A DNA stretch of 64,000 bases from Botryllus schlosseri (taxonomy: Eukaryota), in assembly GCA_051294905.1 (NCBI GenBank), contig CM119372.1, positions 24,926,001 to 24,990,000 of the forward strand, read 5' to 3'. The position numbers and the translations under genes were made by a program. The notes under the pieces are model-generated. The model was not told where the DNA came from. It saw only the letters and a list, made by a program, of their open reading frames with translations, and searched no databases. Of the stretch, positions 21,301 through 38,300 are shown one piece after another (the first letter of the stretch is position 1; every line of letters starts with the position of its first letter).

Positions 21301-24300
21301 GTAATTCAATGAGTAACGAGCACGGTTCTTATTTTCATGTTCTACGCTCAGGTGGTTTTCTGATTGTAAGACTATAGTCTACAGCAGTGATTCCCAACCG
21401 CGGCCCCCAGCTATCCTTGTTGCGGCCCCCACAAAAATATGGAGAAATCGATTTATGATATAAAATAAAATATATATTTTTTAATTAGGATTGCAGGAAA
21501 GTTGTGAGTAGAGTGCTAACGTTATGTCACTGGTGTTTCAATGCAATGTGCCCTAACTTTCTAGTTGAACGAGCAGTAGCTATAGATATAGGTATTGATA
21601 ACTAATCTATGGATAGATGTACAATTGTACAACACGGGACTCACGGTTGAATACGCCGAGATGCGTATACTGCTGAGCCGGCTAAAAGCAGCATAATCGG
21701 TAGTCCTATAGCTCGCGACCCAAGCGTCCGAATAAATTGATATGTAAGGTCTTTATTGAAAGCTAGTGCCGCTCTGATTCCGAAAATACGAATTCAAATC
21801 TGGCCAGGGCAATAAAACTACTCCGAAATAGCCGCCGAAGGTCGATGGTTCTGAACAATGGAAACGCGGCAACACAATGACCATAACAATGGCCAGTGGC
21901 GTCGAGCGATTGTTCGGAACTATGCAAATTTTCATATTTTAATGACTATTTTGGGTTCGTTTCATTGCCTTGGCCATATTTAAATTTGTATTTTCTGGAT
22001 CAGTGCGACTCTTGCTTTCGATTATGACAGTGGTTCCCAACCTTTTCCCACCCAACTATACCATTTCGAGATTTTATGCAGTGCTCGCGTACCACCTACA
22101 TGAGTTACGCGCGCCGAAGACGGTCAAAAATGTTTCCACCGTGTTGAGCTGCCGAAGGCGGCGAAACAGAAAATGAACTGCCCATTTTAAAGCGCAGTTT
22201 GGGATTTCTGTGATGGATCCATTTGGACTTTCTTGCAGTCAAATATATTAAAACAGAATTTGGTTAGGTAAGAATCCCAATGCTGTACGACTAGATCTCC
22301 TCCCCGTACGCCGTCATTGGTGGGATTACCGCTACCCACGACGACTTCAAAAAACTAAAAATCAAGCCCACCTGATTTAATAACAACCTTCGGTCGAGAA
22401 AAAAACATAATCTACTCGCGTACCACCAGGAAGACCTTCTCGCAGGCTACCACTAGTGGTACGCGTACCATAGGTTGGGAACCACTGGATAAAGACCGGA
22501 CATATTAGACATATTAAATATGGACGCTCGGATCGCCAGTTATAGGACAACCAATTATGCTGCTTTTACCGGGCTCAGCAGTAGGCCTCTCAGCGTTCAA
22601 ACCGTGTATCATGTGCTGCGCATCAATCTGTATGTTACAAATCTATGGTTAAGGCAAAACCCCGCAGCAGTTGTCCAGTTCTCCTCGATTTTACTCAATT
22701 TTGTGAACTTTTTATTGATCTAAAGCAGTCACAAATTCTATAAAGCTGCAATAGGTTAATCAGTCATTTGGTCAAGTTGGTAAGCGCTTTGATGCTTTAT
22801 AATAGGGTTACCATATTTAGGAAATCTGAAAAGAGGACACTTTTTCAAAATTTCAGACTTGAAAAACTGGTGAAAAATCCTAAAAAAATGGTAAATTTTC
22901 CCCACTTCGAGGTCGGTTGACTACAAAAAAGGTCAACTTTCTGGCTCAGCTATCGAAATACTCGCCGGAGCGTTACTTCAGTGGTGATTTACTCTATCTC
23001 AGTCGATTTTGCCCTATATTTAACCAGCAGTCTCGTAAAAGAGAACAAAATCTCAAAAAAGGACATTTGGGCGTCCTCCGAGGACACTTTAAAAAAAGTC
23101 AAAAAAGACGACAAACCCTCTTAAAGGAGGACGTATGGTAACCTTACTTTATAATTTTTGCTATACTTAATGAGTGTATTCGTGCGGCTCCCACCGTACT
23201 TTGAAATTCTAAATTTTGCCCTCACACCTAAAAAGGTTGGGAACCACTGGTCTACAAGGTCGTTTCGACATATTCCCATCTTTTCATTTTACCGCTATTT
23301 CGTGGTACTTTGGAATGATGAAAATATATTACTAACTATACTGAATTGAAAGAAAACTACAATGCGTTCGTGCCAATCAGCAGGGAACGTTCATGGAAAA
23401 TCTTTTAGTGAATAAATCAGCGATGTTTGCTGCGATATATGATGCATTTTTTATCAGCAATCAAGTATTGTCACAGATATACGCCACGGTGACTTGATCG
23501 CAAAAAGTTGAGGTTGAGAAGAGAGTGCCATTTTTTCAACCAACTGCCCGCCGTGCTGGTCGTTATACTCGTAAAGTCTACTACGAGAGAAAAATTAATG
23601 AAATGCGGTTTCAAAATAAGCTATTCATCTGTGCTCAACATCACTATTCCTCACTAAAGCTGAAACGGCTTCGACGATGGCAATTGGCAGCAGCATTCCA
23701 ACGAGGGAGAATCAGCTGATACGGGCAATGGCCCAGACACCGCTAAGGCCGAGACGCTTAGAAATGGGCTTATTACTTCCCTACGAAATCAAGATTTACG
23801 AGAGCTGTTTTTGTTGGAACTTTGCCCGTCGCCCATGTTAGAGAGCACAGCGTCGTACTGACTTAAAATATTTTAAAACGTGGTTGCTCAAAGTATGGCC
23901 TATTTTGTCTCGATATTGCATTCTTGCGGCCAGTGGCCTCTACGAAATTTGAAAAGTGGCCGTCGACCCGTTTTGAGTTGGCGAGCACTGCACTATGAGA
24001 ACATGAATTGACGTATTCGCAAATGCGGCGATGTCCGAATTTGCTCCAAACTACCCTAATGCTAGAAATCGGATACAATGCATAAACTCATGAGACACCT
24101 GTAGGTAGAATTCCAGTTTGCGATCAACTCTAAGTATTCCGTGTCTGCGTTTACCAATTGCATGATAACCCCTCGCAACGCAGGACCGCAAAATCATTTT
24201 GTAGCATTTTGCGTCTCTGGATGATCTATACTTCGAGCAGTACGACTATATTCAATATGCCTATTGCGTACTACACCTACCGTTCCAAGTAGAATTTTCA

Positions 24301-26392
24301 CGCGTATATCATCATAATACTGCATATTCGGTCGGAGCAGGATCGTATCCGGGTTTGAGTCCGGCAATTTACTCAATTTAGCGCGGTCGTAAGGCAGTCG
24401 GGACTCGGCACAAATGATTGTAATATTGCCGCTGAACCCGCTCTTGCGCAGTGTTTCCGCGCAGACGAGAGACGCCGGCCCGCCGCCAACAATCAAAACA
24501 GTCTGGCCGTCATCAACACATTGATCTGAAAGATATGGATGGGTAATCCATGAGCGGATCAGAGGTCAAAGTAGCAATTAAGTAGCAAAGTATACTTCAA
24601 GTGGTAATTAAAATGATTCGAAATAGTTGCAGAATGTAGATTTGGTCCCGTGGTCGCATAATTTTTCAGCAGTTAGCCTAATTGGAGGTGGCTACTCACG
24701 AAATTGCAAGATGAATCGTTAATCATTTTTAGTCAGCCTTCAGGATTACTGGACCATGCCACCTCATTTTGTCGCTTGCCTTTTTCATTCAGTGTACTGT
24801 ACTGTACCTCTTGTCTACTTCGCCTATAAGCCAAGGTGGGTGTCTGATCTCAAAGACCACTCCAAGTCGTTTCGACACCTTCCTATCTTTTCATGGTATC
24901 GCAGTTCTGTTCTGTTTTGAAATGATGAAAATATTAATAAAACTGATACTGATCCTGCGTTAGTTGCGAGATGCACCTTGTATAGTCTTAGAATATCTAA
25001 CAAACTGCTAATTAAAGGTATGCGCCTCCTCGACCAATCTACTTTTAGAAGTACTTTACAGCCCATTATTATTTTCTACTTTCACTAGAAGGAGTTTAGG
25101 CATGTCTTGGAAATCGTTCATTCTACTTGTACACTTGTACTTGAGGGAAAATTTACGTAAACACTTTGGTCATTTCCAATAAGTATAGGCCTACTGTCAC
25201 CCTTGAAGTATTATTTGACTGAAAGTCAATGGAGTCGGCGCGAGTAGCGCTTCTTGAATATCGAGTATACTTCGTTGTTCATTAGCTCGTTGTACCATGC
25301 AAATCCAACCAACTTCAACAATTACGTCTACATACCAACATTGCTGTTAAGATGTAATTTCCTTTTCGCACTTTTCAGTTCGACAATGTTTGCTTGAACT
25401 GATATGTCGCCACTTCCGGAGTCAACAGATACCTGAAAATAACAGCGAATATTTCTTGTTCAAACCTAATCTCAATTCCAGTCGCGCTTCGGGGCGATAG
25501 AGCAGATCGCGACCAAATCCCCACACATCAGAAAGAATGCATTTTTTAACATTCGTTTGCTACGTTTTTACGCGCAGGTATGACACGAATAACACGCAGA
25601 CAACAGTTGTAAGCAACTAAGCTCTATGAAACATGTATGATGTATCATATCTGTGTCTCATAATCCCGCACTCGCTCGTTGCACAATGCACATGCACAAG
25701 CACACCCAACCACTAAAGCATCCCACATGTCTCCGACGATGTTTTCCTTAGGACGAATCTTATCATGAATTCAAACCAATTTGCGTAATGCAAAGGCGAT
25801 TTTCATGATCAAAAGTCATATTGTAGCAATGAGTTTGGTACGGTTCTCGCTTAATGGCTATAGTTTTCGCGATAATATTTCCTTTGTTGCAAGAAATCCA
25901 ACAAATATTGGTGGCGTCGCGATTTAAAATTATACGATGTTTGCTATATAATCTGCTATATAATCATCGGTTAATTCTCCGATAACTTTCACACCTGGTA
26001 CGTTGGAATTGAGTCCACCCCTGGGTAATCTTCGATGTCTCCGGTCCTTGCATTAAAACAAGCACCGTGCCATGGACAGCGAATTACACCGTTGCTGATA
26101 GCTCCTCGCGCCAAAGGCGCGCCGTAATGAGAACATTTATGTCCGAGAGCAGTGATTTCGCCATCTTCGTGGCTAGAGACGAGTACGTTGTAATCATTGT
26201 AGAATGATATATTTCATAGGATTTGTATATTGGATGAAGTAAATTACAACGTTCAACTTGAGAACAGACATACCGGATCAGTAAACACTTTCCGTGATCG
26301 GCCACATCGACTTCTTTCACCAACGGTAAATGGCCTTGAAGTTCGCTGATGTTTCCGACAATTGCTTCAACATAATCAGTAGCAGGCTCCAT
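15325..26392 (-). CDS. AIFM3: Apoptosis-inducing factor 3-like (Rieske 2Fe-2S + pyridine nucleotide-disulfide oxidoreductase)
   Basis: Phase-consistent GT-AG exons 26392-26274, 26172-25995, 25432-25336, 24525-24281, 20942-20741, 19725-19613, 17583-17391, 16876-16730, 16666-16577, 15680-15325. Motifs: Rieske CSH...[53 protein letters not shown]. Confidence 0.93.
21384..23250. mobile_element. Nested hAT-type MITEs in an AIFM3 intron (inner copies ~22028-22487 and 22803-23146)
   Basis: cagt(g/a)(g/a)ttcccaacc...ggttgggaaccactg termini. The tagggttaccat...atggtaacctta element has 8-bp TSD ctttataa; the same family at 61998-62257 has TSD tgtaacaa. Confidence 0.7.
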
Positions 26393-27296
26393 CGTTTTAT
26401 GCTAAGAAAAATCAGACAGCGTATTTGGTAATACGATTGCATGCGTAATGAGTACATTCCGAATGGATGATGCTGTAGCTTTGTAAGCTGTCTGCATAAA
26501 CTGTAACCTGACTGCCAGTACCGCGTAAACAAGAATTGCGTAACTCCATCGACTCCATCCAAAAACGCTTATCACTAGTGCGTTCGCGCTGGGCATAACA
26601 GCGCTTTATTGCGATTTGCGAGTGACAACGCCTGTGGTAGACGCGGCGTCCTTCAGCTCGATTTCAAAGTGATTTTGAGAGCAAACTAAACTTGTGCATT
26701 ATCATGATGATAGGACCACGATTTCGGTGCATACTGGTGAGGGCGTTTTTGTAATGACGTAATTTTTGAATTCGTGATTTTGATGCTTTTTTTTCGCGTT
26801 TTGTAATTGGCGTTAACGTTTGTAGGCTGTAGACTTGTGTGTTCAAACCATGATCACCAAACAGTACCGGTATCTAAATAAATGTTTATACGTTCAACTG
26901 TTGTATCTAAGTTACAATGTCTCTATGTGAATGATTTAGTAAGTACCATAGCCCAAGGTGCAGTATTAGGAAGGCCAACAAGCCCAACATACATCATAGA
27001 CATTTGCTGCAATGGCCTTGTAATTCATATCATTTAATGATTTTGATTGTATTGTACCTTTATATCCTTACGGTACTGCTTTTGACGAAAATACGCCTAT
27101 TTTCAGATGTATAGCATATAATTTGTTAGCGATACATGAAGCTAAGATTGCTCTTGAAACCTAGTTTCCACAGAAACTTTGTTGAAATAAATAAGATACG
27201 CGTGTGCTGGGATTCAATGCTATTGACCTTCTTTTTAACTACGGTATACCAGATGTAGGGTTTTTATCCATGTATTGACCATTTGACTATTCCAAA

Positions 27297-29378
27297 ATGG
27301 CAGCCAAAGGTATGAAAGGGCTACTGGCATGGTGCAAAAAGAACACCGAAGGTTATAGAGATGTAAATGTTACGAACATGTCCTCTTCATGGAAAGATGG
27401 ATTAGCCTTCTGTGCTTTGCTGCATAAATTTCACCCCGAACTGATAGACTTCGACTCGCTCTCCAAAGAAAATGTGCTATACAATAATCAGTTGGCATTT
27501 GGAATTGCAGAGGACCTTGGCATTGCCGCATTCCTTGATGCAGAAGACATGGTAAATATGAAAACGCCAGACAAATTAAGTGTTATGACTTATTTGTCTC
27601 AGTATTATAACTGCTTCAAAGATAGCAAGCCTGGGGAACATGATGCCAACCAAACTGTTGTCAACCCAGTGAATAACCCAAAAACTCTCGATTCCCCAAA
27701 GAAGGCAAACGATGTAAGTCTTTGCACGATTTGTGGCAAAAAAGTACACCTCGTCCAGAGATATTTCGAAGATGGAAAGCTCTACCATAGGACTTGTCAT
27801 CGCACTAGCTCTCTAGATAATATCAGGGGCAAAAATTATTTCATTAAACAGACAAAGGATAGAACAAACGACTCTCAAAGTGTAACTCTACCTAAGGTGA
27901 AGGGGGGAAATGAAGCTGCACCAACGTCCACACCTGGTGATCAAAATGAAATGTCCGTAACTACAAGCAGTGGCGATGCTGGGATTGATAGAGTTGACAC
28001 AAGGCATGAGGACTCTGATAAAGACGATCAAGCATCCTCCAATGGTACAAATGACAATACTTTTAAACCTCTTCCCAAACCGCGAGTCAGAACACTGCCG
28101 CCGAATACCAATGCTGCTACAGATACTGTTATGCAGTCAAGTTCTAATGGTGCTTCAAAGCCCGTTTCTGATGACGATCACAATGATGATCTCAACCCGT
28201 TCGGTTCAGATTCTGATAGTCAAGAAACTTTATTATCAACATCATCTGAAGATGACACAAATCCTTTTGCCTCTACGACAGAATCGAAGAGTGGAAGTCA
28301 GAAGACAGGGCAACAGCAGTCAGAGTCGGAAAACGAAGGCAATCCTTTTGGTGATGATGACATCGATGAAGTGGCGGATGAAGGTTTTGGAAATCCATTT
28401 GGAGACTGTGACAAAGAGGAAAAAATTGAAACTTCTCAGCTGAAGCCGAAACAACCGGAACGCTTCAACCCATTTGCCAAAGACATCAGCGAAGAGCCTG
28501 TTGTCGAAAGCAAGAAAATTCCTAAGAAAGCCCCTCCGCGACCTGTAAATACACCTGCAGTCAAAGCACCCCCAAAGAGTCGTAAGAAGGCACCTGCACC
28601 ACCTCCGCCAACATGGAAGCTTGATTCCACTCAGAAAATGGTTGAAATGAACAGGGCCAATGAAAGAAACGAGAAATTCCCACAGAAGAAAACAGTGGAA
28701 CAAAAACCAATGTCGCCACGCAAGCCATCAACGAAAATGGATCGATTTAAGTTGCGAAGATTGTCGACTCCGAAAACACGAGCGGCACCGGGTTACGGAC
28801 ATCCATTGGTAAAACGAAAAGTACATATCGCAATGACCGAAGACGAAATAACAACAGAATTGAAACTGATTGATATCAAATTGACTGACTACGAGACCAA
28901 GGGTGTGAAGCTGGAAGAAATGCTAAGATTTGCCATGAATAAAGATGTGGAATGGACAAACGAGGAGGATGAGCTTCTTAACGAGTGGTTTGATCTTGTC
29001 AATAAAAAGAATATTCTGCTAAGAGACGAGTCCGATCTCGTGTTTCAACTTCAACAGCAAAGATTAGAGCAAGAACACGCCGACATCGAATTTGAGCTGA
29101 GAAAACTTCTGAACAAACCAGACTCTGCGAAAACCGAAGAGGATAAAAAGAAAGAGGAGGAATTACTGCTGAAGCTCGTGGAGGTTGTGGAGAGAAGAAA
29201 TGTAATCATAAACTCCATAGAAGAGGAACGACTGAAAGAAGCGGAGGAGGATTCAATGTACGAACAAATGAAATGGATGAAGGAGAATCCAGGTAAAAAG
29301 AAGAAAAAGAACAAAGTAAAGAAAATGTTCAGCAAGAAGGACAAAAAGAAGGAAAAGAAAGTCAAAGACAATCAATGA
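27297..29378 (+). CDS. MICALL: MICAL-like protein (CH domain, partial LIM, NPF motifs, Pro-rich region, C-terminal bMERB coiled coil); intronless CDS
   Basis: 693-aa ORF: LLAWCK..TEGYRDVNVTNMSSSWKDGLAFCALLH (CH), CTICGKKVHLVQRY..DGKLYHRTC (LIM start), five NPF motifs, WFDLVNKKNILLR...LEQEHADIEFELR (bMERB). Confidence 0.9.
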   Translation: MAAKGMKGLLAWCKKNTEGYRDVNVTNMSSSWKDGLAFCALLHKFHPELIDFDSLSKENVLYNNQLAFGIAEDLGIAAFLDAEDMVNMKTPDKLSVMTYLSQYYNCFKDSKPGEHDANQTVVNPVNNPKTLDSPKKANDVSLCTICGKKVHLVQRYFEDGKLYHRTCHRTSSLDNIRGKNYFIKQTKDRTNDSQSVTLPKVKGGNEAAPTSTPGDQNEMSVTTSSGDAGIDRVDTRHEDSDKDDQASSNGTNDNTFKPLPKPRVRTLPPNTNAATDTVMQSSSNGASKPVSDDDHNDDLNPFGSDSDSQETLLSTSSEDDTNPFASTTESKSGSQKTGQQQSESENEGNPFGDDDIDEVADEGFGNPFGDCDKEEKIETSQLKPKQPERFNPFAKDISEEPVVESKKIPKKAPPRPVNTPAVKAPPKSRKKAPAPPPPTWKLDSTQKMVEMNRANERNEKFPQKKTVEQKPMSPRKPSTKMDRFKLRRLSTPKTRAAPGYGHPLVKRKVHIAMTEDEITTELKLIDIKLTDYETKGVKLEEMLRFAMNKDVEWTNEEDELLNEWFDLVNKKNILLRDESDLVFQLQQQRLEQEHADIEFELRKLLNKPDSAKTEEDKKKEEELLLKLVEVVERRNVIINSIEEERLKEAEEDSMYEQMKWMKENPGKKKKKNKVKKMFSKKDKKKEKKVKDNQ

Positions 29379-30567
29379 TCCATATATCTACGTCAAGCAT
29401 GCAGCTGCACTTCGATACCTATTAACACAGTTTAGTATTGAGAAAAGTTGTCATTATAGATGGGGTAAAAAACCGTAGCATTATCGTAAGACAGTTCCTG
29501 TAATGTGCTGGTTCATATTGCAGTGCAACTGTCAACACAAAAATATTCATTGCACTTGATATACTTCGAATTTCCAAGCCTGGGCCTGTAGGACGTTGTT
29601 AATTAGTAGGCTATATATTGTATAGCATACTAATGGTGACCTGAACTAATCATTTGTGGGTAATACAGCCCGTACGAGATATGTAGTAACAACATGCTCC
29701 AATTAGCTAACTTGCAATTAATGTTATTTATTGATTTTGCAACGTCTTGTGTGATTTTGAATGTTGGTGTTTCAGAAATCTTGATGTACAATTTTCTGCC
29801 ATGCAATAGCCATCTCTACACCCTGTCTGCTTTTAACTGGAATTGTTTGTTCTACATATTTTATATCCAGGATTTGGACATGGATATCAGTGAAGAATAA
29901 TTATAGAGCAAGGAAATCAAAGAGCCTACACACCACAGCAAAAGTAGTAATCCAGTGCAATTTCATGAATGAGCAGTCATTATTTGAAGATTTCAATTGT
30001 GTTGCGATATATCTTTGCCGTCATGCTTACCTATATAACAATGCATTCTTTTGTTGCTGATACATCACTTTTAAATGCTTATACTAATATAATCCATTGC
30101 GAATATATGCCACATTTGAATTGGATTTACACCTATTGGAGATAGGATGTAGGTACCTGATGCAACCTACATAATTTGATGATTTAGAGCCAATAGTATA
30201 GATCTGATTACATCGAAGCAGCAAGGCATCTTTCACAGGATTTATTACATCGAAGCAGCAAGGCAGACATCAAATGTAATATACTGGTGAGGATCAGGTC
30301 AGAACACCTCTATAGATGGCAGTGTACTGCGGCAAAGTATTTGTGATCAAATAAGTAGCAAATACTTCTTCACATATCAATGACCCCATCTGTTGTTCTT
30401 GCCAGCATGTTTTGAACTGGTCAGCTGTCATATGCCTTGAACGGCTGGGCATTATCAGCATTCTTTTTTTATAACGAAGAGTTTACGAAAGTGAAAATTT
30501 TTACAATTCCACATTGTCGCATTCCATATCCGGATGATCTAATCTGACTCCAACCACGGGTCGCGCA

Positions 30568-31377
30568 TTAGACAAGAAAGGCATCATCGTCTTCAAGCTT
30601 GTCGTCCTTTGCTTCCTGGAATGAATCATCAGCATCTTCGAGCCAAGGGCTGTCGATGGGTATATTTCCCAGCGCTTTCACAGTATCTTCATTCATGGAC
30701 ATGAGATTTAGTCCTTGCATGGTCATCTGTTCAAGGACTTCTTCACTTGTTGGTACTTGATGCAGTTCATCGTCATATTCTGGACCAAGCAACCATAGTT
30801 TTTCTAGATTGTATATCAACCTTGTTTTCTCTAGCATAATATGAATGACCATATTGCCGAAGTCTATGGAATGCCAGTCATCGGAATGCTTTTTACCTTC
30901 AATGTTCACAAATGGATGAAAGTGTTTCCTTTTCTTCTTGTACAATTTGTTGAGGATTTCACTTATACTGAAAAGATGTCTGGGCGAATTGGCAGTCGCA
31001 ATGATAAAATAGTCAACGTAACACATTTCCTCAGGTACTTGGATGGCAACCACATCGACACCGCCTTCTTCCCTTATTAGATCAACAACTTCATCCAATT
31101 GAAGAACAGCTAATTCAGATGTTACACGACCTTTGGATTGTGCCCGCAAAGCAGGCCAAGTTGATGTAACATCATCGCTATGTTGTTTAGAAGCGCTAAT
31201 ATGATATTGACGAGGTTTTCTGCTTTGGGGTAGTGTGGTTTTAGGGCCCGAGGGGGTGCGTTGGGGTTTCACACGCAATTCATTGCATAAGAGACAGGAC
31301 TCAAGACTCAATCCTGATAAATATCGGGACTTTCTTAGAATGTGATTGAAAATTATTGATGACTTATTAATGATCAT
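30568..31377 (-). CDS. MALSU1: Mitochondrial assembly of ribosomal large subunit 1 (RsfS/Iojap family); intronless
   Basis: DVVAIQVPEEMCYVDYFIIATANSPRHL...DDWHSIDFGNMVIHIMLEKTRLIYNLEKLW is an RsfS domain. Basic, acid-poor N-terminus resembles a mitochondrial presequence. First ATG is at 31377; the track's 31389 start is a TTG. Confidence 0.9.
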   Translation of the reverse strand: MIINKSSIIFNHILRKSRYLSGLSLESCLLCNELRVKPQRTPSGPKTTLPQSRKPRQYHISASKQHSDDVTSTWPALRAQSKGRVTSELAVLQLDEVVDLIREEGGVDVVAIQVPEEMCYVDYFIIATANSPRHLFSISEILNKLYKKKRKHFHPFVNIEGKKHSDDWHSIDFGNMVIHIMLEKTRLIYNLEKLWLLGPEYDDELHQVPTSEEVLEQMTMQGLNLMSMNEDTVKALGNIPIDSPWLEDADDSFQEAKDDKLEDDDAFLV

Positions 31378-31378
31378 G

Positions 31379-31654
31379 CTATTCACCAAATTGCTCGATC
31401 GTTTGAACTATCAAAATTATATTTTCGAAAAACGCAGTAACTGAGGTTCGTAAAATACGAGCTTCTTTCGCAGTCCAGTTAACTCGGAGAAGGTTTCCGG
31501 AGACTTCCAGCTTCTTCGTTACGATGTTTTTTCTTGGTTCCGCGTCCACGCTCAGTGTTCTTTTCGCAATATTCGCATGGTTCGGGCAAGGAAATTTCAC
31601 TTCAACAGAAAACTTTAGGTCAAGCGCACCTGTCATATTTCTCTGCTGCTCCAT
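31379..31654 (-). CDS. LAGE3: EKC/KEOPS complex subunit Pcc1/LAGE3; intronless, 91 aa
   Basis: VKFP.PNHANIAKRTLSVDAEP...VTKKLEVSGNLLRVNWTAKEARILRTSVTAFFENIILIVQTIEQFG fits the Pcc1 family pattern (FP...A.IA...L..D.EP...LR.S...F...L.LV..T...FG). Confidence 0.88.
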   Translation of the reverse strand: MEQQRNMTGALDLKFSVEVKFPCPNHANIAKRTLSVDAEPRKNIVTKKLEVSGNLLRVNWTAKEARILRTSVTAFFENIILIVQTIEQFGE

Positions 31655-32319
31655 ACTCCCTCCACGAGATGATGATGGTGAGAAATGTTTTCTCTATCCG
31701 GTCGGTTCCTCGCCACTGCTCAATAAACTGTATTACAGATGATGAAATATATATTGATATATCGAGGCTGCATAATAAAAAGCAAATGAAATTGATGGTA
31801 TCAGTGAGTGTATTATATTTTCACTATTGAGATTTCCACGAAAAATATCAATTTTTATATGTAAATGATTGCTTGGGTCGTTCTGCATCATTGACGATTG
31901 CACGTGTGTCAAGCTTCTATTAGAACATTATCAATGACAGGAGTGCGGTATGTTACAAATCCCCCGTCTGAAGCTCGTTTCGGTTCGTTTAAATATCCTT
32001 CCACAAGCCTAGTAAGCAAACTATTATGCTATTAGAATTACGTTTACGTTCCATCAGAGAATGGCTACTCTGACTGTAATAGATACTCTATGACTGTGAT
32101 GTACTGTAACCTAACGACGCTAACGTGCTTTGTAGATATTATATAAACTTTTGATCGAAAGCATCAATTGAATTGCATATATTTTTTTAACATTGAGCTT
32201 TTCTATTAAAAGTCGGCTTATATTTTGTGATAATTTGTCGATACTGCCAAGAACAAAGTAAAAGCGGATCAGTGGGATCATTATCACATCAACAAACAAC
32301 GTTTTGAAAGCAAGGGATC
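31655..32319. promoter_or_regulatory. Probable bidirectional promoter between LAGE3 (-) and PES1 (+)
   Basis: 665 bp separate the divergent ATGs; the region is AT-rich and free of large repeats. Inferred from gene geometry. Confidence 0.55.
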
Positions 32320-35300
32320 ATGGGTCGCATGAAGAAAAAGGTATGGTTTTGATATTCTACTATAGGCCAGGCTGACAAACGTGCGCAATGTGTGTGTGAG
32401 TGTTGTGCAATTCACTGACCTCAAACCTGAGTGTATTTACCGACAAGATAGCGTAATGGTTAAACATCCGGCTTCTTGATCGGTATGGTCGGGGCTTCGA
32501 TCCCCGGCCGGGTCAGACCAAAGACCTGATTAGTAACACTGGTATCCATGACTTCCCTGCTTGGCGCTCATGCATTACTGGGATAGCATGGAGGGGTGGT
32601 GCAAGACTTGAAAAGCCATAGAAGGCTATATCTGCACCCCAGAGTGGAATGATTACCAGTTAACTCGGCACTTGGTGAATTCGGCCGGACGAACTCGGCA
32701 CTTGGTGAATTCGGCACTTGGTGAATTCGGCCATCAGGAAATTTTGTAATAATAATGCATTAAATATATATCTCAGATAAAGAAGAATCACGTGCCGTGG
32801 TCGATCGCGTAGCGGTACCGGTCACCATGATTGGTTACTGGAATGTTTGCCGGTGAACTCGGCACTAATCTTGGGATATCCTAACCCCAACTTTGACCCT
32901 AACCCACCTCCAATCCCCCTTTCCCCCAACCTAATATCCTCCTTACCTAACATCCCCCAACCCTAATCTTGGGATACCCTAACCCGCCACCACATATCCG
33001 TGAATTGCCTTATAATAGATTCAAAAAAGCCCTACTTGATCACCGATTGTCGCTACACTAACACTGTTGCCCTACCTCGCCCAGACATTGCTTCATTGAT
33101 CATTTGCTACCATTGTTGAATTTTTTTTCTATTTTCCTTTCCTAACTAAACATCTTTTTACAGCCATACTGTTCAGAGTCAAGTGTACCTGTTTGATGCT
33201 GGTGTGATCAGACTAGATGACCTTCACGGTCTTATCGATCATTCCTATCTAATACCGAATACTGTGCACGCATATTTTCTGTACCACCATCACTGCCGTT
33301 TGTTATGTATTTTGGTTCGATGAAAATAAAGACTCTCTCTCTCTCTCCAATCACCTTTTCCCCCAACCTAATATCCCCCCTTCCATAATCTTGGGATACC
33401 CTAACCCACTTTCAATCACCCTTTCCCCCAACCTAATATCCCCCCTTCCCTAACATCCCCCAACCCGAATCTTGGGATACCCTAACCCACCTCCAATCCC
33501 CCAACCTAATATCCCCCCTTCCCTAACATCCCCAACCCTAATCTTGGGATACCCTAACCCACCTCCAATCTCCCTTCCCCAAACCCTAATATCGCCCTTT
33601 CCCCCAACCCTAATATCCCCCTTTCCCCAATCCTAATATCCCTCTTTCCCCCAACCTAACATCCCCCTTCCAAACCCTAATATCCCACTTTCCCCAACCC
33701 TAATGCCCCCACCCCAACACTAACATCCGTCTCTCCAAAGGCACAAAAAAACACAATTTATTTTGACGTTTGTAAATTTTTGTTCGTGGGAAACGTTTAT
33801 TGGTGATCCTTTAAAACTTCGTTATTACATAAAACACAGATATCCATCTTCTCAAAAGTCGTCCGTCCGTCCCACGCCAAGTCAAATCAACACTGAGCCG
33901 ACCACGCGTGGTCGATGCGCGAACGTCGCGTTATCTCCCGCGCTTGCGCAATCCGTGATCATGTGATCGCCGTGACTGCGTGATCTACGCATGCCCTGAC
34001 CTCCTTACAAGATTGCCAATCACTTGATAATAACATTATTAGTTTAATAATTCATATTAATAGCTGTTAATACACTTTATTACAAAATTTCCCGATGGCC
34101 GAGTTCACCAATGTTCGAATTTACCAAGTGCCGAGTTCGTCCGGCCGAATTCACCAAGTGCCGAGTTCACCGGCAACCGAGTGGAATTGGTGGCAACGTC
34201 ATGCAGAACTTTCTGTTCCATTACACAATTATTCTATGCAGAAAAGTTCTCATCACGCAGGATGTATTTCAAAAAATGAACCGAGATTCCAGATATAGGT
34301 CTGCACCTTCCTTGTCCAGCGGCATATGCACATCATGCACTCATGGTATGCATATGCACAGATCGTGTTTAACATTATTTGACTTGTGAATAAAACTAAA
34401 TAAAAAATAGTATAAAATTTGTATAAAAATGCCCCAGACCGGAGGAAGGCCCTACGATTTGAGAGAGGGGAATACGATGGTCTGTGAATTCGGCGAGCCG
34501 CATAAAATAAAAAATAGAAATGAAAAAGTGCTTGGAGTATTTGGTTATATTAAGGTAGGCATCGTGTCCTGCTGCCTTTAAAAAACCAGTGCTTCAATCA
34601 CTGTTTGTACCGGGAAGAGTATGGCTTCGGCCTTCATATTCCCAAACGAGCACTCTCCGACGGGGTTGTTTACCGGGGGAAGAGTTTCAAATGTGGCAAG
34701 CCGAAAGTCTTGCCAGCTCAAAACAAGAGGCTGTGGACGAGCAGTTGGAGGTTTTGGCCGCAGACAGGCCTTCCGCCAAGCTATCCGCAAGTCTCGCCTT
34801 GATGCACTGAGGGGAGTCGAGTGAGAGTCGTCATACCCAACAGTCTCAGGCACTACAGCACGACCCGGCCAAGTGATGACTGACTGGCTGAAATGGTTGC
34901 GAGAGTGAATGTGCAACCGGGTCCGAAGTGCTTGGGCTGTTCCACCACGTCCTAGGCAGAGGTTTTCTCCGGGTACTCAGGTTCCTCATGCACGAAAATG
35001 GATGACTGGTAATAATAGGAACTAATAAAAGCCATTAACAAACAAGGCACTTGGTCCTTCGATCAAACTGCCTGTACCTGGGGAGGTAGGCTGCGATCCC
35101 TCCAGACCAGGGCACCATTGGGTTAACCAAGGTTGCCGAAAAAAGAAAAAAAAGTGCTCGCACTGCCAGTTGCTAAAAATAAGCATCTGATCTCTTGTCA
35201 CTGACTTAGTATAGCCATTTGAATTCCGTAATCTAACCTCTCACGCCGCTGAGTTGGCTCTGTCGCGCGAGAGAAGTTCCCACCATGCAGGATTTATTCA

Positions 35301-38300
35301 AAAAAAAGGACCGAGATTGCATAGTGGCGGGCTGGGATGGGTGTCCAAAATCATGGATATATATTCACATGTGGGACTTAACACAATAACACATTTTTTT
35401 TTGCACTTCTGACAATTCCATGAGTCCGTGCAAATGTTGCTTGCATGGATGGACATGATTACCATGAAAACTAGCCGGTCTGGTTATTAAGTCTATCTTG
35501 AAATTGTGTTGTTTCATCTTCATGTTGGCCCAATGCAAATTACATTTAACCCTCAAATTCACTTTTTACAGTATGAAGCAGGGGCCGCGACCCAGTATGT
35601 CACAAGAAAGTACGCCTGCAAGAGGCTTCAACTCAGTCTGGCCAATTTTCGCAGAATATGCATTTTAAAAGGGATTTATCCACATGCGCCTGCTAACAAA
35701 AAAAGGGTATGGTTGCCGAATGATCCAACCTAAAAGTATTCAATCGCAATGTTTCATTTCGGCCATTTCAGGTTAACAAAGGCAGTACTTCAAACAGGAC
35801 ATTCTACTTCTTAAAAGATATTCAATTTCTCACTCATGAACCGGTTATCTCTAAGTTTCGTGAAAACAAGGTGAGTTAATTTCTATGAGATTGCTAGTTG
35901 GACACTTGGTTGCTTATCACAGAGCTACTTGATATGAAGGTAGTAGTTTCCATTATTGTACATCCTGTATAAAAACCCGTCAGCAGTTTTGAATGATTTT
36001 TGAGATATAGTGTAGTGGCAAGGGTAAGTCCCTGATTAGTGTTGGTATGACATCGGCTAATTGTGTTTATTTTCATGATTTGATGGTTGTCACGGTTTCA
36101 TTCTGATGCATGCTCGTGCTCATAATTATTTTGGGCAGCTTGGGCAATCATGTACACTGTACAGTGTACAGCCTATTTTTCGTCAAATATATTTTGTAAC
36201 GTTACAAATACTGCGGGCAAGTCGGACATGTGATACATTAGTAATTGTTTGATATTCAATGCTTGACCAGCTGTGAAAAATGATTTAGACATACATCAAG
36301 AAGCTGAAAAAGGCTGTTGGAAGAGGGGAGGATAAAAAGGTGGACAAAATTAGGAAAAACAAGCCATCGTACAGGATTGATCATATTGTTCGTGAGAGGT
36401 AAGTCTGTCAGACAATATCAAGGAGAAATTGGCTTAGCTTTCGATTATTGAAGTGTTATGCCCGCTCATGGCGAAGTATAACCCAGCCTGTTGAACTGGT
36501 TAATATTTTGTTATCTGTGCTGTGGACAGCAGTCGTGTTGCAAAATGCAGTTCATAAACTCAACATAAAGTAAGCTAACGGTATATCGAAATCGACTACT
36601 GTTAGTGAGATTAAAATTTCATTCTGTAACCAATGCACTAGTTCTGGAACTTCATTTGTATTTAGATATTTCCCCCTCAGTTTTTTACTGTTCTCACAAT
36701 ATCAACGGTCACGCTTGAACATGGAAACTGATTTTGTTTAGGTATCCTACTTTCGCCGGGGCAGTGCAAGACTTGGACGACGCTTTGTGCATGTGCTTTC
36801 TATTCGCCAACCTGCCGAAATCACATAGCATTCACGCAGAGACCGTGGCCCTGTGTAGAAGATTAACTGGTAAGTTTATCCTGCTTTTTCGGATACGGCT
36901 CAATCAGCGTCGTTTTTTTTTCGGTCATATTGTTTACAAATGAAGGCTCTATGCTTCTTTTACAGTCGAATTTATGCTTTATGTAATCGAGGCGAAAGCC
37001 CTCCGAAAAGTTTTCATTTCGATCAAGGGGATATATTATCAGGCAGAGGTCATGGGGCACACAATAACGTGGGTCACGCCTCACAGCTTGTCTCATCACG
37101 TGAGTTGCGTCGCTTTAAAATGTCCGTGAGTCGGTAGTTAATTAAACGATTGATTTTTTCAGCATCCGGAAGATGTCGACTTCAAAGTGATGTCTACCTT
37201 CACCGAGTTTTACCGAAATATGCTCGGATTCGTTCTTTTCAAGCTGTTCAATGATCTCAATTTGCATTATCCTCCTCGTGTGTCGATCACCGGCGGCGCT
37301 GAGGACCGCCAGGATATTGTTGCGTCGAAAACGGGCAGGAAAAGGAAACGCAGAGACGACGAAGGAAGAGATCGTGAGCCCCAGTTCTGCATGATTTACG
37401 AGACGCATAGAGAAGTGAGTTGTTATTCGATGATGATCATTTTTCAGTTTGCGGTGTGCGGAAACGAATTATACTATTGTGATTTCAGAATGATTGCATT
37501 TTCTATTTTATTTTAAATCACGGCATCAGAATCTTTATCGCACTTGGTTCCATGGATTGCAGCATTTTGTTGTGGAAATTTCATGGCGCATTCTTGAGTC
37601 GCTATGAAGTCTGCTTACTCGATTAGATATCCAGAATAAGAGTTCTATTCCAGTTAGCTTCATTATAGGCAGGCATATATCATAGTGTCATTCGTTCAGA
37701 ATTGGATTGTTTAGTGTAAATTCGGCGATGCTATTGTCCGATATTTTCCAACCTTTTCGACTCATCTCCCCCCCCCCCCACTGATCCAAAAAGAGTACAT
37801 GGCTGAAATATGTTTACCTAGTTCTGATCACTTGTGAATTGACTAAAAAAAGCCATGTCACGGAGATTTCATGTCTAGGTTTGTCTGCCATGAAATCACC
37901 TATGATTTTTGTTTGTTTTCTGGGATGATTAAATCTATGTGCTCCATTTTAGAGGAAAATTATCCGTGTGATTAATCAGTTAGTGCGACCTTGCATAGGT
38001 ATCTTTCGATTTCGGGGTGCTGCAGAATGTTGAATCGGTGAATCACCCCTGGCAATTTCGTGGACATATTTGCCAATTGTTTTGACAATGACGCAATAGT
38101 GCATGTTTTCTAGCCCACAATTTGTTTCCATATTGATTTACTTCTTCATATTCAATTTGTGTTTTTGTCGATTATAGCGCATTGCCAGTCTCAATGTGCC
38201 ATTGGCAAGAGCATCGATCGAAGAAGACGCTGTTGTCGACAATGAAGATGACGTCGAGCTCTTGTCTGGTGACAATGAAGCTGTAGCCAAACAGAAGTTG

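What the first reader, a model, noticed from the sequence alone, without database searches (positions are those of the whole stretch)
30568..31654. Candidate animal bicistron: LAGE3/PCC1 stop is one nucleotide from the MALSU1 start (TAG-C-ATG)
Seen: on the minus strand the Pcc1/LAGE3 ORF ends ...GGT GAA TAG (31381-31379), followed by one C (31378) and then ATG ATC ATT AAT AAG (31377) opening MALSU1. Both ORFs are intact and intronless, with no room for a 3'UTR, polyA site or promoter between them. The MALSU1 N-terminus from this ATG looks like a mitochondrial presequence, and the next in-frame Met is inside the RsfS domain, so this ATG is probably the real start. Known: both proteins serve translation (KEOPS t6A tRNA modification; mitoribosome large-subunit assembly). 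MALSU1's mammalian partner L0R8F8/AltMiD51 is itself encoded as an upstream ORF on the bicistronic MIEF1 mRNA. Inference: either one mRNA yields both proteins by termination-reinitiation or leaky scanning, or the AG of the LAGE3 stop codon doubles as a (trans-)splice acceptor (...gaatAG|cATG) that releases a MALSU1 mRNA.
Basis: partly seen in the sequence, partly recalled or inferred. Interest (0 to 1): 0.85.

Follow-up and report, generated by a model that had tools for sequence, protein, structure and literature searches.

The report
Sea-squirt LAGE3–MALSU1 two-gene messenger RNA
In a sea-squirt genome, two unrelated housekeeping genes (a tRNA-modification subunit and a mitochondrial-ribosome assembly factor) sit one base apart and are carried on one mature messenger RNA; how the second protein is made from it is still open.

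Summary
On the minus strand a 91-aa Pcc1/LAGE3 ORF (31654-31379, stop TAG) is followed by one C (31378) and the ATG (31377) of a 269-aa RsfS/MALSU1 ORF (to 30568). Both match Pfam over the full domain and are single copy in this 495-Mb genome, which is an ascidian-type tunicate (nearest named homologue Styela clava).

RNA data support a real bicistron:
- Two transcriptome contigs from two studies (30213-31691 and 30261-31620) span both ORFs and stop at the transcript's edges.
- Raw RNA-seq depth does not dip at the junction.
- 3'-tag single-cell reads pile up only behind MALSU1, next to the only AATAAA. None lie on LAGE3, so LAGE3 has no poly(A) site of its own.

This departs from Ciona-type operons, where the upstream mRNA is polyadenylated at the acceptor AG and dicistronic RNA is rare.

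The two genes appear to share a contig in at least two relatives.

How MALSU1 is translated is unresolved. My estimates are termination-reinitiation 0.45 and a minor spliced-leader trans-spliced mRNA using the AG of TAG 0.35. The read table that would show spliced-leader ends was crowded out by a neighbouring repeat.

Verdict: new variant of a known kind, moderate interest.

The parts
30213..31691 (-). Mature bicistronic transcript (about 1.48 kb, no intron)
   Evidence: table 8: X2 record 10 is a whole 1479-nt contig lying on 30213-31691 with 0 mismatches. X1 record 2 is a whole 1360-nt contig on 30261-31620 with 0 mismatches. Depth is about 0 in 31718-32019 in X24, X22 and X2.
31655..31691 (-). 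5' UTR (37 nt). The 5' end at 31691 lies directly after an AG (31693-31692). Whether it is a transcription start or a spliced-leader acceptor is unknown.
   Evidence: X1 record 3 (depth 3.47) reads 31653-31900, which could be an outron or upstream start at about 4% of the main depth.
31379..31654 (-). Cistron 1: Pcc1/LAGE3 (KEOPS subunit), 91 aa, stop TAG 31381-31379. Its AUG has A at -3 and G at +4.
   Evidence: 60-94% identity to 4 relatives, C-terminus at the same place.
31378..31378 (-). One-base spacer (C) between the stop and the start
31379..31380 (-). AG of the TAG stop, a candidate (trans-)splice acceptor. The pyrimidine tract is weak (39% C/T at -25..-3).
   Evidence: Use as an acceptor was not observed and could not be tested from the output.
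31655..31656 (-). GT two bases before the LAGE3 ATG (context GGA|GTATGG), a candidate cis-splice donor. Paired with the TAG acceptor it would remove exactly the LAGE3 ORF (31656-31379).
   Evidence: sequence only. No such joint is table 5, of which 15 rows are not shown.
30568..31377 (-). Cistron 2: RsfS/MALSU1 (mitoribosome large-subunit assembly factor), 269 aa, with an N-terminal basic extension and a tunicate-type C-terminal tail
30213..30567 (-). Shared 3' UTR
   Evidence: the X22 3'-tag depth is 92.5 and 203.7 in bins 30208-30358 and 30359-30509, and 0 in the three bins 31265-31717.
30241..30246 (-). The only canonical AATAAA between 30100 and 31950 on this strand, 28-33 nt before the contig end at 30213

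Best explanation
LAGE3 and MALSU1 form one intronless transcription unit in an ascidian-type tunicate. It yields one stable, polyadenylated mRNA of about 1.48 kb (31691 to about 30213) that carries both reading frames one base apart. LAGE3 has no 3'UTR and no poly(A) site of its own, so this bicistronic mRNA is the LAGE3 mRNA. Scanning ribosomes start at its first AUG, which is in strong context. These points rest on RNA data or follow directly from them. My inference for MALSU1 is that a fraction of the ribosomes (or their 40S subunits) that terminate at UAG stay on the mRNA and reinitiate at the AUG one base downstream. This would be coupled termination-reinitiation after a 91-codon ORF. It would give a lower, fixed ratio of MALSU1 to LAGE3. 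A minor spliced-leader form may exist alongside. I put the bicistronic mature mRNA at about 0.9 and the reinitiation step at about 0.45.
For: Transcript:
- table 8 shows whole contigs on 30213-31691 (X2) and 30261-31620 (X1), from two studies, with 0 mismatches, ending where depth falls to 0. This is the behaviour of RNA, not DNA.
- X24 raw RNA-seq depth (both orientations summed) is 24.4 in 31416-31566, 20.0 in the junction bin 31265-31415 and 18.6 in 31114-31264. There is no dip and no step up.
- 24 of 24 X24 reads covering 31388, 10 bases from the junction, carry the same allele away from their ends (table 3).
- X22 3'-tag reads give 92.5 and 203.7 at 30208-30509 and 0 in the three bins over LAGE3.
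- The only AATAAA is at 30246-30241.
- No splice joint is listed inside the unit.

Both genes are real and unique.

Reinitiation:
- The stop and start are 1 nt apart. [quoted passage not shown]
- Cellular examples exist (PMC3923131, abstract).
- The upstream mRNA expected from a Ciona-type resolved operon, polyadenylated at the G of the acceptor AG (PMC1488885 section 14), is not seen.
- Pcc1 is also an upstream cistron in Drosophila CG14550 (PMC2276209 table passage).

Conservation: the LAGE3 homologues P0065 and P0066 and the MALSU1 homologues P0002 and P0004 each sit on a single contig, with matching lengths 4388 and 2264.
Against: - No translation data of any kind were available.
- A 91-codon ORF is long for reinitiation. 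The viral cases need a TURBS element. The motif TGGGA (recalled, not from a call) is absent from LAGE3, and the junction region has no unusual fold (z 0.17).
- The organism belongs to a group where downstream cistrons are normally served by spliced-leader trans-splicing (PMC1488885). An earlier unchecked note on this genome reports the leader joined at acceptors placed right at ATGs (e1-7786388).
- The stop is TAG, which supplies an AG exactly at the boundary.
- X24 depth rises to 29-46 in the 3' two-thirds of MALSU1, so a shorter MALSU1-only RNA of up to roughly a third to a half of the total cannot be excluded.
- In one relative, three contigs of 1283, 1283 and 1290 nt encode full-length MALSU1 (P0003, P0068, P0069) with no LAGE3 hit on a contig of those lengths. 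This hints at a monocistronic form.
- The tool warns that a contig across two genes does not by itself show a single transcript.
Confidence: 0.45

Rival explanations
1. Outron-encoded gene, or an operon resolved only for the downstream gene. The same primary transcript has two fates. Left unspliced it is the LAGE3 mRNA. In a minority of molecules the spliced leader is trans-spliced to the AG of the TAG stop (31380-31379 | 31378). This gives a capped monocistronic MALSU1 mRNA whose AUG lies one base after the leader, and the LAGE3 part is discarded like an outron. MALSU1 protein would come mainly from this minor form.
For: The genome is from a tunicate. [quoted passage not shown] The 5'-most operon genes are single-exon in 60% of operons (PMC2760879 passage). 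[quoted passage not shown] The TAG stop puts a YAG acceptor exactly at the boundary. A weak acceptor would explain why most RNA stays unspliced. Earlier notes on this genome report a 24-nt leader and its joining at acceptors placed at ATGs (e1-7786388, e1-7803915; not checked here). Contigs of about 1285 nt with MALSU1 alone occur in a relative.
Against: There is no step up in X24 depth after 31378 (24.4, 20.0, 18.6 per bin; per-site depth 24 at 31388, 9 at 31249, 16 at 31219). No pile of molecule starts at 31378 appears in table 6. The pyrimidine tract is poor (39%). The polyadenylated upstream product that accompanies trans-splicing in Ciona is absent (0 depth on LAGE3 in X22). A 1-nt spacer is not needed for this mechanism.
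Confidence: 0.35
2. Leaky scanning. Some 40S subunits pass the LAGE3 AUG and the two other upstream AUGs, then start at the MALSU1 AUG on the bicistronic mRNA.
For: Only three AUGs precede the MALSU1 AUG in 314 nt, and the last 200 nt before it have none. Leaky scanning is the usual route in some algal and animal bicistrons (my own knowledge, not from a call).
Against: All three upstream AUGs have A at -3, and the first also has G at +4. The AUG count in the ORF is not lower than in codon shuffles (2 observed against a mean of 2.84, P 0.41). Leaky scanning does not explain the 1-nt spacing.
Confidence: 0.07
3. Alternative cis-splicing. The GT at 31656-31655 (GGA|GTATGG) is spliced to the AG of TAG. 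This removes exactly the LAGE3 ORF as a 278-nt intron and leaves a monocistronic MALSU1 mRNA with the same 5' end.
For: GT and AG bracket the ORF to the base. The donor has A at +3 and G at +5.
Against: No joint from 31378 to 31657 is listed table 5, although 15 rows are not shown. The donor is weak at -1, +4 and +6 and the acceptor is weak. A GT near an ATG and a TAG stop can easily co-occur by chance (my rough estimate is a few percent).
Confidence: 0.05
4. Independent MALSU1 promoter inside or upstream of the LAGE3 ORF. The long RNA would serve LAGE3 only, and a nested shorter mRNA would serve MALSU1.
For: Depth is higher in the 3' part of MALSU1.
Against: No start pile appears in table 6. 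Per-site depth just downstream of the junction is lower, not higher, than in LAGE3. A start within the last 200 nt of LAGE3 would be needed to avoid upstream AUGs.
Confidence: 0.04

Closest known systems
Ciona intestinalis SL-resolved operons without intercistronic DNA (Satou et al. 2006, PMC1488885; Satou et al. 2008, PMC2760879)
   Same: The host is a tunicate. Two same-strand genes have essentially no DNA between them. The 5' gene is single-exon, as in 60% of Ciona operons. Both are transcribed as one RNA. An AG sits exactly at the boundary.
   Different: In Ciona the upstream gene keeps a 3'UTR and its mRNA is polyadenylated at the G of the acceptor AG (41 of 55 cDNAs). Dicistronic RNAs there are rare precursors. 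Here the boundary is the stop codon itself, no polyadenylated LAGE3-only RNA is seen (0 depth in 3'-tag data), and the dicistronic RNA is the main or only LAGE3-bearing species. Trans-splicing of the downstream gene could not be tested.
Drosophila dicistronic mRNAs, in particular CG14550 (Pcc1-like upstream ORF plus PIG-P main ORF; PMC2276209 table passage)
   Same: A small Pcc1-family protein is encoded as the first cistron of a mature two-protein mRNA in an animal.
   Different: The downstream partner differs (PIG-P rather than MALSU1), the lineage differs, and there is no spliced-leader system. I did not see the stop-start spacing for CG14550.
Coupled termination-reinitiation after long ORFs: calicivirus VP1/VP2, influenza B M1/BM2 (UAAUG), and some human mRNAs (PMC10275272 passages; PMC3923131 abstract)
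   Same: The stop and start are out of frame and within a few bases. The second product is a full functional protein. A fixed sub-stoichiometric ratio is expected.
   Different: The viral cases need a TURBS element pairing with 18S rRNA. No TGGGA motif and no significant structure was found here. Dependence of MALSU1 synthesis on LAGE3 termination is untested.
Human MIEF1 mRNA (altMiD51/L0R8F8 upstream ORF plus MiD51; PMC11837024 passages)
   Same: A mitoribosome-assembly protein is made from a two-protein mRNA, and altMiD51 is MALSU1's partner.
   Different: The genes and their order differ. In humans MALSU1 itself is monocistronic (my own knowledge). There is no evolutionary link to this locus.

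Membership tests
Pcc1/LAGE3 (KEOPS subunit, PF09341) | Full-length match to the Pcc1 domain above the curated cut-off | tested here: met
   78.4 bits against a cut-off of 20.9, profile 1-75/75; 40 invariant columns among 5 tunicate-type sequences.
RsfS/MALSU1 (PF02410) | Full-length match to the RsfS domain above the curated cut-off, with named MALSU1 proteins as closest homologues | tested here: met
   86.5 bits against a cut-off of 21.6, profile 2-98/98; named hits are vertebrate 'mitochondrial assembly of ribosomal large subunit protein 1' and Styela clava 'K12H4.2-like'.
RsfS/MALSU1 (PF02410) | Mitochondrial targeting presequence | tested here: inconclusive
   The first 70 residues have 12 K/R, 4 D/E and 14 S/T. 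An N-terminal extension is present in 7 of 8 relatives but is poorly conserved. No targeting predictor was available.
Ciona-type SL-resolved operon | Same-strand neighbours with no intercistronic DNA, co-transcribed | tested here: met
   The spacer is 1 nt. One RNA spans both.
Ciona-type SL-resolved operon | Upstream mRNA polyadenylated at or next to the acceptor AG | tested here: not met
   X22 3'-tag depth is 0 in 31265-31717 against 92-204 behind MALSU1. There is no AATAAA near the junction. This rests on one single-cell run, about 3 in 100 of it read.
Ciona-type SL-resolved operon | Downstream cistron carries the spliced leader at the boundary | tested here: inconclusive
   The loose-end table shows 24 rows of 830, all from the repeat at 32439-33347. 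Nothing can be said for 31378.
Ciona-type SL-resolved operon | Dicistronic RNA is a rare precursor | tested here: not met
   X24 depth over LAGE3 (24.4) is 50-130% of the depth over the MALSU1 bins (18.6-46.2). The contigs run through the junction in two studies.
Termination-reinitiation bicistron (long upstream ORF) | Mature mRNA holds both ORFs, with stop and start within about 20 nt | tested here: met
   Criterion from PMC10275272.
Termination-reinitiation bicistron (long upstream ORF) | Translation of ORF2 depends on termination of ORF1 at that place | not testable with these tools
   Needs reporters or ribosome profiling.
Termination-reinitiation bicistron (long upstream ORF) | TURBS-like element upstream (viral subclass only) | tested here: not met
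   There is no TGGGA in 31691-31378 (motif recalled from memory). Fold z-score is 0.17.

The most novel reading that the evidence does not exclude
A chordate keeps two essential, unrelated translation-related genes as a translationally coupled pair. LAGE3 has given up its own 3'UTR and poly(A) site. MALSU1 is made only by ribosomes that have just finished LAGE3 and restart one base later, after a 91-codon ORF and without a viral-type TURBS. The arrangement is conserved across ascidian genera. That would be a natural cellular case of bacterial-style translational coupling in an animal that also has spliced-leader operons. It would suggest that some 'operons' with single-exon first genes in ascidians are never resolved.
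Probability: 0.35. Interest if true: 0.75.

Novelty: new variant of a known kind. Interest (0 to 1): 0.5.

Why it matters
Tunicate operons are thought to be resolved into monocistronic mRNAs. Why their first genes are so often single-exon is unexplained (PMC2760879). Here the first gene cannot be released as a normal mRNA, because its stop codon is the boundary, and the RNA data show that the unresolved form is the stable product.

If MALSU1 is read from that RNA, it is a clean cellular model of reinitiation after a long ORF in a chordate. If it is read from a trans-spliced minor form, the locus shows a protein gene living inside another gene's outron, with splicing efficiency setting the ratio of a cytosolic tRNA-modification subunit to a mitoribosome assembly factor. 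Either way a single base change (TAG to TAA) separates the two models.

There is also an annotation consequence. Pipelines that keep one ORF per mRNA will miss LAGE3 in such genomes. All 4 LAGE3 hits came from unannotated assemblies, and none came from annotated tunicate proteomes.

Tried and rejected
- **No RNA holder listed.** The look-up of sequencing runs listed no holder on record as RNA. X1-X14 are only guessed to be RNA. I treat X1 and X2 as RNA because their contigs stop at transcript edges and the intergenic bins are empty. That is my inference.
- **Spliced leader or template-switch ends at 31378 and 31691, and a 31657|31378 joint.** Not readable. One search shows 24 of 830 loose-end rows and leaves 15 joints unshown, all crowded out by the repeat at 32440-33380. 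The stretch I chose was too wide and the cap is one call.
- **DNA of relatives.** Not obtainable. Spacer and stop-codon conservation therefore stay untested. Co-residence rests on equal contig lengths only.
- **Locus cut-outs.** These failed (not completed).
- **Shorter LAGE3 fragments** (30-49 aa): none found.
- **AUG depletion** in LAGE3: not significant.
- **TURBS motif and local RNA structure:** none.
- **Rfam** on 30000-33600: 0 matches. **tRNA scan** on 31700-35500: 0 genes.
- **Earlier notes near this place or like this sequence:** none.
- **Literature.** LAGE3+MALSU1 gave 1 unrelated paper. MALSU1+bicistronic gave 9 papers. I read passages of one, PMC11837024, which ties MALSU1 to altMiD51; the other 8, on mitochondrial translation, mitoribosome assembly or OXPHOS disease by title and abstract start, I did not open. 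LAGE3+bicistronic gave 3 papers, none on gene organisation by title or abstract. bicistronic+tunicate+reinitiation gave 3, none on such a locus. I found no report of this gene pair in these searches.
- **Retrocopy or pseudogene reading:** rejected, because both genes are single copy and conserved.
Full report
**1. What is in the sequence**

Read on the minus strand, a 91-codon ORF runs from ATG 31654 to a TAG stop at 31381-31379. One C follows (31378), and then ATG 31377 opens a 269-codon ORF ending in TAA at 30570-30568.

- ORF1 matches Pfam Pcc1 over the whole profile (E 5.5e-22, 1-75/75).
- ORF2 matches RsfS over the whole profile (E 1.5e-24, 2-98/98, residues 96-195).
- The next in-frame Met of ORF2 is residue 118 (31026), inside the domain.
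- Seven of eight relatives have an N-terminal extension of similar length beginning at an aligned Met, so 31377 is the likely start.
- The first 70 residues hold 12 K/R and 4 D/E. This fits a mitochondrial presequence but does not prove one.

**2. Whose genome, and are these the working copies**

The window lies in contig C2 of a 495.5-Mb, 219-contig assembly.

- The nearest named MALSU1 homologue is from the ascidian Styela clava (55% identity). Eight tunicate-type sequences share a C-terminal tail ending DDDAFLV (or DEDAFLV in one), and vertebrate MALSU1s match only the core.
- Earlier notes of this scan also call the genome a sea squirt's.
- Each protein has one significant place in the whole genome. 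The only other LAGE3 'match' has E 0.66 and an internal stop.
- LAGE3 is 60-94% identical to four relatives with 40 invariant columns, and its C-terminus ends where theirs do.

Both are therefore the functional genes, not retrocopies.

**3. Neighbourhood**

- A single-ORF CH + bMERB (MICAL-like) gene on the plus strand (27297-29378) converges on MALSU1.
- Pescadillo exons start at about 35491 on the plus strand and diverge from LAGE3.
- Rieske and Pyr_redox_2 exons lie at 24197-26213 on the minus strand.
- No coding match was found between 31654 and 35491 among stop-to-stop ORFs of 55 aa or more. I scanned 103 of the 121 ORFs in 22000-42000. The 18 left out overlap the three known ORFs.

The pair is therefore a two-gene unit, not part of a longer train.

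**4. RNA evidence (my only lay of reads)**

I used four runs of the same organism: X24 (bulk RNA-seq raw reads, about 6 in 100 read), X22 (single-cell 3'-tag raw reads, about 3 in 100 read), and X1 and X2 (Logan contigs from two other studies, RNA only by guess).

(a) *Contigs.* X2 record 10 is a whole 1479-nt contig lying on 30213-31691 with no mismatch. X1 record 2 is a whole 1360-nt contig on 30261-31620. Both cover LAGE3 (X1 lacks its first 34 nt, ending next to a variant at 31621), the junction, and all of MALSU1. They end where depth ends: bins 31718-32019 are 0 in X24 and X2, at most 0.56 in X22 and at most 3.5 in X1. The neighbouring gene's contig stops at 30049 or 30118. A DNA library would not behave like this, so I take X1 and X2 to be transcriptomes.

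(b) *X24 depth* (both orientations summed), running 5' to 3' along the transcript:

| Bin | Depth |
|---|---|
| 31567-31717 | 6.0 |
| 31416-31566 (LAGE3) | 24.4 |
| 31265-31415 (junction) | 20.0 |
| 31114-31264 | 18.6 |
| 30963-31113 | 30.8 |
| 30812-30962 | 29.2 |
| 30661-30811 | 35.4 |
| 30510-30660 | 46.2 |
| 30359-30509 | 24.9 |
| 30208-30358 | 13.5 |

There is no dip and no step at 31378. Per-site depths from table 3 are 24 at 31388, 9 at 31249, 16 at 31219, 20 at 31171 and 24 at 31154.

(c) *X22 3'-tag reads* give 92.5 and 203.7 in 30208-30509 and 17.1 in 30510-30660. Further up, the four bins 30661-31264 hold 0.13 to 5.6. The three bins 31265-31717 hold exactly 0. The only AATAAA on this strand between 30100 and 31950 is at 30246-30241.

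(d) No cis-splice joint is listed inside the unit, and table 6 lists no pile of starts or ends at the junction.

Together these show that LAGE3-bearing RNA has no 3' end other than the one behind MALSU1. The mature LAGE3 mRNA is the bicistronic RNA. I put this at about 0.9. The remaining doubt is that short reads and contigs do not show single molecules end to end.

**5. What could not be read**

The stretch I laid included a very highly expressed repeat at 32440-33380, with depth in the thousands. Its rows filled the loose-end table (24 shown of 830), and 15 joints were not shown. The output therefore says nothing about spliced-leader letters at 31378 or 31691, or about a 31657|31378 joint. 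This is the main gap in the report.

**6. Comparison with ascidian operons**

In Ciona, operons "entirely lack intercistronic sequences", the downstream cistron is trans-spliced at the boundary, and poly(A) is added to the upstream mRNA at the G of the acceptor AG in 41 of 55 cDNAs. Dicistronic cDNAs are rare next to hundreds of monocistronic ones (PMC1488885; passages, section 14 read whole). Sixty percent of operons have a single-exon 5'-most gene (PMC2760879, passage). About 19% of Ciona genes and 27% of Oikopleura genes are in operons (PMC4122922, passages).

The locus shares three features with this pattern: juxtaposition, a single-exon first gene, and an AG exactly at the boundary. It fails two tested features. 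No polyadenylated upstream mRNA is seen, and the dicistronic RNA is abundant rather than rare. I therefore do not file it as a standard SL-resolved operon, although it may work partly like one.

**7. How MALSU1 may be made**

*Termination-reinitiation (0.45).* The 1-nt spacer is what coupling needs (PMC10275272, passages). Cellular cases are known (PMC3923131, abstract), and yeast can be induced to do it (PMC11952965, abstract). Against it:
- the upstream ORF is 91 codons long;
- there is no TGGGA motif (motif recalled from memory);
- there is no special fold (z 0.17).

*Spliced-leader trans-splicing at TAG|C (0.35).* This is the normal route in tunicates. Competition between spliced and unspliced fates from one promoter is described in Ciona (PMC11155486, passages). 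The TAG stop supplies the AG. Three contigs of 1283-1290 nt in a relative encode MALSU1 with no LAGE3 hit. Against it:
- the acceptor is weak (39% pyrimidines);
- depth does not step up after 31378;
- there is no upstream poly(A) product.

*Leaky scanning (0.07).* Three AUGs with A at -3 stand in the way, and AUGs are not depleted.

*Cis-splicing of the LAGE3 ORF as a GT...AG intron, 31656-31379 (0.05).* The bounds fit to the base, but no joint is listed.

*Internal promoter (0.04).* No start pile is seen.

**8. Conservation**

LAGE3 homologues P0065 and P0066 and MALSU1 homologues P0002 and P0004 are each known from exactly one contig, with lengths 4388/4388 and 2264/2264. The pair therefore very probably shares a contig in two further taxa whose MALSU1 is 54-63% identical to this one. 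Conversely, LAGE3 homologues P0064 (94% identical, contig 2222) and P0067 (contig 7193) have no MALSU1 partner in the list. I could not see any relative's DNA, so conservation of the spacer and the stop codon is unknown.

**9. Known parallels**

In Drosophila the CG14550 transcript has a Pcc1-like upstream ORF and a PIG-P main ORF (PMC2276209, table passage), so Pcc1 as a first cistron has arisen before with a different partner. MALSU1's partner altMiD51 is an upstream ORF of MIEF1 in humans (PMC11837024, passages). I found no paper linking LAGE3/Pcc1 with MALSU1 in one transcript.

**10. Verdict**

The finding is real and the bicistronic RNA is supported. It is a variant of known kinds, namely ascidian operons without intercistronic DNA and animal dicistronic mRNAs. 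The unusual point is that the upstream gene has no 3'UTR or poly(A) site and the unresolved RNA is the stable product. The mechanism for the second protein is open, and one stop-preserving base change would decide it. Interest 0.5.

Noticed in passing
window 32440-32640: A short element with enormous RNA depth (X24 about 2400-2600 per orientation; X1 word depth above 31000). Template-switch-oligo letters abut 32444, which marks a capped 5' end. Loose ends contain a tRNA T-arm-like string. ARAGORN finds no tRNA and Rfam finds nothing, so it is probably a tRNA-derived SINE family transcribed from many copies.
   Followed up: partly
window 32900-33380: A second block of repeats with very high contig depth (up to about 22000 in X1). 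It has many 'goes back' and 'skips' joints and C/T-rich inserted letters, so it is a variable tandem or satellite-like repeat that is expressed.
   Followed up: no
window 27297-29378 (+) and 30049-30213: An intronless 693-aa CH + bMERB (MICAL/EHBP-like) gene converges on MALSU1. The two transcripts' 3' ends lie only about 95-165 bases apart (contigs end at 30049 or 30118 against 30213).
   Followed up: partly
window 30515-30544: In run X24, 12 reads show a 'goes back 30' joint, which is a 30-base tandem duplication allele in the MALSU1 3'UTR just behind the stop codon. X22 shows 7 molecule ends at 30544.
   Followed up: no
window 30568-30760 (MALSU1 residues about 205-269): Tunicate-type MALSU1 proteins carry a conserved C-terminal tail absent from the vertebrate hits: GL.LMSM..DT..AL ... 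PW ... D.DAFLV, with the invariant columns listed. Its function is unknown.
   Followed up: no
window 31653-31900: A low-depth X1 contig (3.47 against 85.7, 7 mismatches) reads from upstream into the 5'UTR. The main transcript's 5' end (31691) sits right after an AG. The LAGE3 end of the mRNA may itself be made by trans-splicing of an outron.
   Followed up: no
proteins P0003, P0068, P0069 (relatives; contigs 1283, 1283, 1290 nt): Three near-identical-length contigs from a related taxon encode full-length MALSU1, but no LAGE3 was found on contigs of these lengths. This may be a monocistronic MALSU1 mRNA in that taxon.
   Followed up: partly
window 24197-26213 (-) and 35491-37513 (+): Exons of an AIFM3-like gene (Rieske + Pyr_redox_2) and of Pescadillo flank the locus. 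About 3.8 kb between LAGE3 and Pescadillo has no recognised coding sequence apart from the repeats.
   Followed up: no
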